64,000 bases of DNA from Escherichia coli (GTDB lineage Bacteria; Pseudomonadota; Gammaproteobacteria; Enterobacterales; Enterobacteriaceae), in the NCBI RefSeq assembly GCF_002854065.1, contig NZ_CP024147.1; one strand, written 5' to 3'. Shown here one piece after another: positions 53,438 through 53,704 of the stretch (its first letter is position 1; each line of letters starts with the position of its first letter). The notes beneath the pieces are model-generated. The model made no database searches and had not been told where the DNA came from. It saw nothing but the letters and a program-made list of their open reading frames with translations. The position numbers and the translations under genes are program-made.

Positions 53438-53704
53438 TTATAGAATCTGACTATGAAACTATTCGTATTAGCTCCGATAAGTTTGATGATGAAAACAGAA
53501 CTGGCGACAACAAGTAGCAGCCTTTCTGATGAATTGACCCCAACTTAATATTGTCAACTATCTTCACAGAATCTCCACAATCTCTTCATTATCAGAATAT
53601 GCACCATGAATAAGATAAAAATACTTTCCATTACTTTGGAGAAACGTATAATCAGCAAAAATGAGAACGATCATTCTCACTAAGTGATAGGCCAGGAGAC
53701 AGAA

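What the first reader, a model, noticed from the sequence alone, without database searches (positions are those of the whole stretch)
53677..53687. Short palindrome at the tetR ribosome-binding region
tcact-a-agtga is a 5-bp-arm inverted repeat 7 nt upstream of the tetR RBS. It could be an autoregulatory operator half of the regulator. It resembles the palindromic cacttaaataagtg motif inside the IS2 left end, which may be coincidental. It is short, so chance occurrence is plausible.
Basis: seen in the sequence. Interest (0 to 1): 0.2.

Follow-up and report, generated by a model that had tools for sequence, protein, structure and literature searches.

The report
Chance palindrome beside known EefR operator
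The 11-base palindrome is a chance, strain-specific by-product sitting next to the real, already published binding site through which the efflux-pump repressor EefR shuts off its own operon, so the finding is ordinary.

Summary
TCACTAAGTGA is at 53677-53687 as reported, 6-7 nt before the Shine-Dalgarno sequence of a 188-aa TetR-family gene. It is not unusual: the window holds 84 palindromes of this 5+1+5 format. The gene is eefR, repressor of the accessory eefRABCD RND/MFS efflux operon that lies between fabI and sapF in about 38% of complete E. coli genomes. The autoregulatory operator is already published (PMC12482432). It is the 18-bp palindrome TGAGAACGATCATTCTCA, at 53662-53679, just downstream of a TTTCCA-16-TATAAT promoter-like site. 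The reported palindrome shares only its first 3 nt (TCA) with it. A single change at 53675, outside the reported palindrome, abolished EefR binding in that study. The strain tested there has C at 53681, which breaks the reported palindrome, yet it showed binding and autorepression. Only 48 complete E. coli genomes carry T at 53681; 1850 carry C. Across 74 loci from other species and genera the 18-bp operator is nearly invariant, while 53682-53687 is unconserved. The leader RNA has no significant fold. The IS2 resemblance is a chance 10-mer that lacks the IS2 OrfA docking sequence.

The parts
53677..53687 (.). Reported palindrome TCACT-A-AGTGA. Its left arm is the last 3 nt of the EefR operator plus CT. 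Its right arm lies in unconserved 5' leader. No independent function is supported.
   Evidence: Present. Class frequency is at chance level. It needs T at 53681, found in 48 genomes against 1850 with C. Only 2 of 75 aligned sequences form 5/5 pairs.
53662..53679 (.). EefR autoregulatory operator TGAGAACGATCATTCTCA (half-sites TGAGAA / TTCTCA, 8 of 9 arm positions complementary).
   Evidence: Found as inverted repeat I4. Identical to the sequence shown by EMSA, point mutants and a GFP reporter in PMC12482432. Present with 0-3 mismatches upstream of the gene in all 80 related loci. The central positions that were not used for anchoring are 91-100% conserved.
53681..53681 (.). Polymorphic base (T here, C in most E. 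coli) that decides whether the reported palindrome is perfect.
   Evidence: The 37-mer with T matches 48 complete genomes and the 37-mer with C matches 1850. ATCC 35218 primers carry C.
53625..53652 (+). Sigma-70 promoter-like site: -35 TTTCCA (53625-53630), 16-nt spacer, -10 TATAAT (53647-53652). It places the operator at roughly +3 to +21 and the reported palindrome at roughly +19 to +29 (inferred; the start site is not mapped).
   Evidence: Consensus scan, 10 of 12 matches. It lies inside the 316-bp fragment with promoter activity and the 129-bp EMSA probe of PMC12482432.
53694..53698 (+). Shine-Dalgarno AGGAG of eefR.
   Evidence: Sequence; 6 nt before the ATG at 53705.
53705..54271 (+). 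eefR, a 188-aa TetR/AcrR-family repressor.
   Evidence: ORF and RefSeq annotation of identical DNA. 99% identical to the E. coli cluster P0001 and 187/188 to L002. The published EefR is also 188 aa, with the DNA-binding residues V45 and R50 present.
54420..61197 (+). eefA (54420-55541), eefB (55541-58648), eefC (58652-60025) and eefD (60034-61197). These are the efflux genes co-transcribed with eefR and repressed through its promoter.
   Evidence: ORFs intact. Annotation of L001/L002. NCBIfam RND adaptor and permease hits. Co-transcription and 27- to 83-fold derepression in the eefR deletion strain are reported in PMC12482432.
52101..53431 (+). IS2 (1331 bp, target duplication AATAT) inserted between fabI and eefR, 193 bp upstream of the -35. 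This is context only; the core promoter and operator are untouched.
   Evidence: Ends and duplication. Absent from L001/L002. The junction is in none of 5426 complete E. coli genomes.

Best explanation
The 11-nt palindrome is a fortuitous, lineage-specific sequence in the 5' leader of eefR and has no function of its own. Its left arm (TCACT) is the last three bases of the true EefR operator plus two moderately conserved flanking bases. Its right arm (AGTGA) lies in freely evolving leader sequence. The palindrome is perfect only in the minority of strains with T at 53681. The functional element is the adjacent 18-bp palindrome TGAGAACGATCATTCTCA (53662-53679). An EefR dimer binds its two half-sites, whose centres are 12 bp apart, just downstream of the -10 hexamer. 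This blocks transcription of eefR and of the co-transcribed eefABCD efflux genes. Loss of EefR binding derepresses the pumps. Binding, autorepression and operon derepression are shown in the literature for the identical operator sequence. The promoter position, the +1 estimate and the road-block mechanism are inferred.
For: (1) The window sequence 53662-53679 equals the published operator. The EMSA probe P1 maps to 53576-53704. Mutants MT-1 (53675 T>C) and MT-2 (53675 and 53676) leave 53677-53687 untouched, yet the paper reports no shift for any mutant.
(2) The strain tested carries C at 53681 (TCACCAAGTGA, 4 of 5 pairs) and still shows specific binding and GFP-reporter autorepression.
(3) Of about 2043 complete E. 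coli genomes with the locus, 48 have the T allele and 1850 have the C allele.
(4) In 74 loci from Escherichia, Raoultella, Kluyvera, Enterobacter, Lelliottia, Kosakonia, Pantoea, Erwinia and Serratia, the operator is kept. Information content at 53682-53687 is only 0.13-0.46 bits. Only the window and E. whittamii form 5 of 5 pairs.
(5) Palindromes of this format occur 84 times in the window.
(6) A 1-nt loop cannot close an RNA hairpin, and the leader RNA folds no better than shuffles (z = 0.03).
Against: The published deletion probe P2 (about 53576-53661) removes both palindromes, so it does not separate them. No footprint defines how far EefR contacts extend 3' of 53679. Bases 53680-53681 (CT) are moderately conserved across genera (62% and 55%), so flank contacts reaching into the left arm cannot be excluded. 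No binding data exist for the T allele carried by this window. I could not scan the site against a library of other transcription-factor motifs.
Confidence: 0.9

Rival explanations
1. The palindrome is an auxiliary part of an extended EefR operator. This could be flank contacts or a second, overlapping dimer site, so that the T allele at 53681 tunes repression strength.
For: It abuts and overlaps the operator. With T at 53681, the outer positions 53660 (A, 84% conserved) and 53681 become complementary, extending the symmetry to 22 bp with one internal mismatch. Some TetR-family proteins bind as pairs of dimers (general knowledge of the family, not tested here).
Against: The right arm is unconserved. 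The paper describes a single DNA-protein complex, obtained with a C-allele probe, and single-base operator mutants abolish all binding. The arm centres are only 6 bp apart, which would put the arms on opposite faces of the helix, unlike the 12-bp spacing of the real half-sites (inference). The arms TCACT/AGTGA do not resemble the TGAGAA half-site.
Confidence: 0.05
2. It is a binding site for another protein. One candidate is the IS2 OrfA (InsA) repressor, because of the resemblance to the IS2 left end; others are a host regulator or a tetO-like site.
For: The leader shares the 10-mer TAAGTGATAG and the arm TCACT with IS2 52135-52154. An IS2 copy sits 245 bp upstream in this window.
Against: 7% of shuffled leaders and 11.6% of random 52-nt tiles of the window share a 10-mer or longer with IS2. 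The OrfA docking sequence is TAAATAA, the centre of the IS2 motif, and it is absent from the eefR leader. The tetO core matches only with 3 mismatches, at chance frequency (16 found, 18 expected). The sequence is unconserved.
Confidence: 0.02
3. It acts at the RNA level, as a 5'-UTR hairpin that modulates eefR translation or mRNA stability.
For: It lies in the predicted 5' leader, 6-7 nt before the Shine-Dalgarno sequence.
Against: A 1-nt loop is sterically impossible. The MFE structure of 53659-53725 does not use this pairing and is no more stable than shuffles (-9.3 against -9.36 kcal/mol, z = 0.03). There is no Rfam match. There is no conservation or covariation.
Confidence: 0.02

Closest known systems
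EefR operator of E. coli ATCC 35218 (TGAGAA-N6-TTCTCA; Virulence 2025, PMC12482432)
   Same: The window carries the identical 18-bp sequence at the same place upstream of a 99%-identical eefR. The 50 nt from 53655 to 53704 differ from the published strain at one base only (53681).
   Different: The reported 11-nt palindrome is not this operator; it shares only TCA (53677-53679). The window has T rather than C at 53681 and C rather than T at 53653. It also has an IS2 193 bp upstream of the -35.
TetR-family palindromic operators in general (for example tetO of TetR, the AcrR operator, QacR IR1)
   Same: A palindromic site overlapping or just downstream of the regulator's own promoter gives negative autoregulation. 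That logic holds at this locus.
   Different: The reported palindrome is much shorter. Its arm centres are 6 bp apart rather than roughly one helical turn. It matches the tetO core only at chance level. It is not conserved with the regulator.
IS2 left-end (IRL) OrfA/InsA docking region next to the PIRL promoter
   Same: It shares the arm TCACT and the run TAAGTGATAG (window 52135-52154 against 53677-53690).
   Different: It lacks the TAAATAA docking sequence that OrfA recognises (PMC3299598). The shared 10-mer is within chance expectation.

Membership tests
EefR operator (published TGAGAA-N6-TTCTCA site) | 18-bp palindrome with half-sites TGAGAA and TTCTCA separated by 6 bp | tested here: not met
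   The reported 53677-53687 contains only the terminal TCA. The feature is met by the neighbour 53662-53679, with 0 mismatches.
EefR operator (published TGAGAA-N6-TTCTCA site) | Required for EefR binding in vitro | not testable with these tools
   Published EMSA: mutants at 53675 and 53676 abolish binding with 53677-53687 intact. The probe strain has an imperfect version of the reported palindrome. This argues against the reported palindrome and for the neighbour.
EefR operator (published TGAGAA-N6-TTCTCA site) | Conserved upstream of eefR orthologues | tested here: not met
   The right arm 53683-53687 has 0.14-0.46 bits, and 5 of 5 pairs form in only 2 of 75 sequences. The 18-bp neighbour is conserved in all 80 loci.
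TetR-family operator (generic) | Palindrome with half-sites about one helical turn apart, located at the regulated promoter | tested here: not met
   The arm centres are 6 bp apart (sequence). The location near the promoter is met. The requirement for about one helical turn comes from general knowledge of TetR-DNA structures, not from a test here.
IS2 OrfA (InsA) binding site | TAAATAA docking sequence next to an extended -10 promoter | tested here: not met
   The eefR leader reads TCACTAAGTGATAGG, with no TAAATAA. The docking sequence is as given in PMC3299598.
Structured 5'-UTR RNA element | A fold more stable than chance, covariation, or a match to a known RNA family | tested here: not met
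   z = 0.03. No Rfam match at E <= 1. No conservation.

The most novel reading that the evidence does not exclude
T at 53681, the minority allele carried by this window, makes 53660 (A) and 53681 complementary. That would extend the EefR operator symmetry to 22 bp. It might tighten EefR repression of the eefRABCD efflux operon in this lineage, giving a natural operator-strength polymorphism. The published data used only the C allele and do not exclude this.
Probability: 0.05. Interest if true: 0.2.

Novelty: already known. Interest (0 to 1): 0.05.

Why it matters
It matters little. The practical value is in annotation. The window carries an intact eefRABCD efflux operon with an intact promoter and operator. 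The true operator can be annotated at 53662-53679. The comparison across genera made here adds independent evolutionary support for that published operator.

Tried and rejected
(1) RNA hairpin in the leader. Rejected: a 1-nt loop cannot form, the fold z-score is 0.03, and there is no Rfam hit.

(2) Relation to the IS2 left end or an OrfA site. Rejected: the shared 10-mer is at chance level and the TAAATAA docking site is missing.

(3) tetO-like site, a lead from memory because AGTGATAG occurs in tetO. Rejected: 3 mismatches to the core, with 16 such matches in the window against 18 expected.

(4) Alternative GTG start at 53684 inside the palindrome (195-aa ORF). Rejected: RefSeq and the paper use the ATG at 53705 (188 aa), and the upstream codons are not conserved.

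(5) Using the published deletion probe P2 to separate the two palindromes. Not informative: P2 ends at about 53661 and lacks both.

(6) Searching complete E. coli genomes for the IS2-eefR junction to identify the source strain. No genome has it.

(7) PDB and NCBIfam searches for a characterised close relative of EefR with a known operator. The best hits were only distant (UidR and Mce3R at E about 1e-12, below the family cut-offs) and gave no usable operator.

Full report
**Observation.** Window 53677-53687 reads TCACTAAGTGA, with 5-bp arms TCACT/AGTGA around a single A. The Shine-Dalgarno AGGAG is at 53694-53698. The ATG of a 188-aa TetR/AcrR-family gene is at 53705. The repeat does not extend, because 53676 C faces 53688 T.

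The palindrome is not statistically remarkable. The window contains 84 palindromes of exactly this format (5+1+5), against about 62 in shuffles. It contains 383 with spacers of 0-4 nt, about 0.36 per 60 nt.

**What the locus is.** The 989 bp from 53432 to 54420 occur in 2043 of 5426 complete E. coli genomes. In those genomes the region lies between fabI and sapF and is annotated as TetR/AcrR regulator, RND adaptor, RND permease, outer-membrane factor and MFS transporter. NCBIfam agrees for the adaptor and the permease.

This is the eefRABCD operon described in Microb Genom 2026 (PMC12817139) and Virulence 2025 (PMC12482432). All five genes are intact in the window:
- eefR, 53705-54271
- eefA, 54420-55541
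- eefB, 55541-58648
- eefC, 58652-60025
- eefD, 60034-61197

The EefR protein differs at 1 of 188 residues from that of strain Santai and keeps V45 and R50.

**The real operator.** An inverted-repeat scan found TGAGAACGA/TCATTCTCA at 53662-53679, immediately 5' of the reported palindrome and overlapping it by 3 nt. This is letter for letter the operator reported in PMC12482432. That study showed four things:
- A 316-bp eefR upstream fragment drives GFP and is repressed by wild-type EefR, but not by the V45E or R50S mutants.
- Purified EefR specifically shifts a 129-bp probe.
- Probes with one to six substitutions in one half-site are not shifted.
- Deleting eefR raises eefA-D mRNA 27- to 83-fold, and the five genes are co-transcribed.

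I mapped the paper's primers onto the window:
- Probe P1 is 53576-53704.
- The deletion probe ends at about 53661, so it lacks both palindromes and does not separate them.
- MT-1 changes only 53675 (T>C).
- MT-2 changes 53675 and 53676.
- MT-4 and MT-6 extend the changes to 53677 and to 53679.

MT-1 and MT-2 leave 53677-53687 untouched and still lose binding. The reported palindrome is therefore not sufficient for EefR binding.

The primers also show that ATCC 35218 has C at 53681 (TCACCAAGTGA, 4 of 5 pairs). Binding and autorepression were thus demonstrated without a perfect copy of the reported palindrome, so it is not necessary either.

**Position relative to the promoter.** A consensus scan gives -35 TTTCCA (53625-53630), a 16-nt spacer and -10 TATAAT (53647-53652), matching 10 of 12 positions. 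If transcription starts about 7 nt after the -10 (inference; the start is only predicted in the paper), the operator covers roughly +3 to +21. The reported palindrome would then cover +19 to +29 of the leader. The likely mechanism is a repressor dimer on two half-sites whose centres are 12 bp apart, blocking initiation or early elongation. This is inferred from the geometry and from general knowledge of the TetR family.

**Polymorphism within E. coli.** I searched with 37-mers centred on 53681. They are built so that every 28-nt seed word includes that base. The T version matches 48 complete genomes and the C version matches 1850. About 145 locus-bearing genomes match neither. The perfect palindrome is therefore a minority allele, about 2% of genomes that carry the locus.

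**Conservation across species and genera.** A scan of one genome per species returned 80 loci encoding relatives of EefR at 47-98% identity. The genera were Escherichia, Raoultella, Kluyvera, Enterobacter, Lelliottia, Leclercia, Kosakonia, Phytobacter, Cedecea, Pantoea, Erwinia, Mixta, Brenneria, Lonsdalea and Serratia. Every locus has a TGAGAA-N6-TTCTCA-like site (0-3 mismatches) within 260 nt upstream of the gene. In Enterobacteriaceae the site usually begins 37-46 nt before the start codon.

I anchored 74 loci and the window on that site:
- The conserved block runs from 53660 to about 53680.
- The twelve half-site positions were used for anchoring, so their conservation is partly circular.
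- The central positions were not used for anchoring, and 53669 G, 53670 A and 53672 C are 91-100% conserved.
- Conservation collapses 3' of the site: 53682-53687 carry 0.13-0.46 bits.
- Only the window and E. whittamii form 5 of 5 pairs of the reported palindrome. E. albertii forms 4, and the other 72 form 3 or fewer.

The left arm looks partly conserved only because it is the end of the operator plus CT (62% and 55% conserved).

**Other readings tested.**
- As RNA, a 1-nt loop cannot form. The leader 53659-53725 folds at -9.3 kcal/mol against -9.36 for shuffles (z = 0.03). Rfam has no match.
- The IS2 resemblance is real at the sequence level. IS2 occupies 52101-53431 with an AATAT target duplication, and its left end reads TCACTTAAATAAGTGATAG at 52135-52153.
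- The longest word shared with the leader is a 10-mer. 7% of shuffled leaders and 11.6% of random 52-nt tiles of the window share a 10-mer or longer with IS2.
- The OrfA docking sequence in IS2 is TAAATAA, the centre of that motif (PMC3299598). It is absent from the eefR leader.
- A tetO-like reading fails: 3 mismatches, at chance frequency.

**Comparison with what is known, and novelty.** Nothing here is new in kind. The comparison across genera is, as far as the two papers I read go, additional support for the published operator, but it is unsurprising.

The one reading not excluded concerns the T allele. It makes 53660 and 53681 complementary and might slightly strengthen the operator. I give this 5%.

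**Verdict.** The novelty class is already known. Interest is 0.05.

Noticed in passing
window 54272-54419 (eefR-eefA intergenic region): Three hairpins are conserved in order across genera, each with a different stem sequence. H1 (54292-54309, GGGGGATATTAATCCCCC plus a T run) looks like an intrinsic terminator right after eefR. H2 is 54316-54339 (CATTGCGAAAT-TC-ATTTCGCGATG). H3 is 54372-54393 (TCCTCATTAA-TT-TTAATGAGGA) and is followed by near-invariant TTCACCCTGGAGAAAA before the eefA ATG. RNAalifold on 24 loci supports H2, with compensatory changes in 6 of 9 pairs. Separate MFE folds of the window and 19 related loci gave the three-hairpin pattern in most, though not every hairpin in every fold; I judged this by eye. 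There is no Rfam match. This may be an uncharacterised attenuator or leader controlling eefABCD. The published RT-PCR shows only that some read-through occurs.
   Followed up: partly
window 54388-54405: An operator-like sequence, TGAGGAGGGTATTTCTCA, has 1 mismatch to TGAGAA-N6-TTCTCA and ends 15 nt before the eefA start. About 3e-4 such matches are expected by chance in a 150-nt region. Its mismatch (TGAGGA) mirrors the MT-1 mutation (TCCTCA) that abolished EefR binding. This region (54274-54419) was the non-competing 'non-specific' probe in PMC12482432. It is not conserved in E. whittamii, E. albertii or other genera. It is probably a non-functional or very weak pseudo-site.
   Followed up: partly
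window 52101-53431: A complete IS2 (1331 bp, 5-bp target duplication AATAT) is inserted in the fabI-eefR divergent intergenic region. It lies 209 bp upstream of the fabI start and 273 bp upstream of the eefR start, with its transposase reading towards eefR. The junction occurs in none of 5426 complete E. coli genomes. Its effect on fabI or eefR expression is unknown.
   Followed up: partly
L035, L045, L050, L068, L069, L080 and the Serratia loci L070-L082, upstream of the EefR-like gene: In Erwinia, Brenneria, Lonsdalea and Serratia relatives (about 47-63% identity) the corresponding palindrome is longer. An example is the perfect 22-bp TGAGAATGAACGTTCATTCTCA, which places the TGAGAA/TTCTCA half-sites 4 bp further apart than in E. 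coli. It sits 90-145 nt before the gene, and in several of these loci the gene downstream looks like an MFS transporter rather than eefA. This suggests a different operator geometry in a sister subfamily.
   Followed up: no
L001 9989-11110 (E. coli CUWW06): In this strain the eefR region is 100% identical to the window, but eefA is annotated as a pseudogene with an internal stop. The window's eefA is intact.
   Followed up: no
window 53653: There is a second difference from the characterised strain ATCC 35218, immediately after the -10 hexamer: TATAATC here against TATAATT in the published primer. Its effect on promoter strength is unknown.
   Followed up: no
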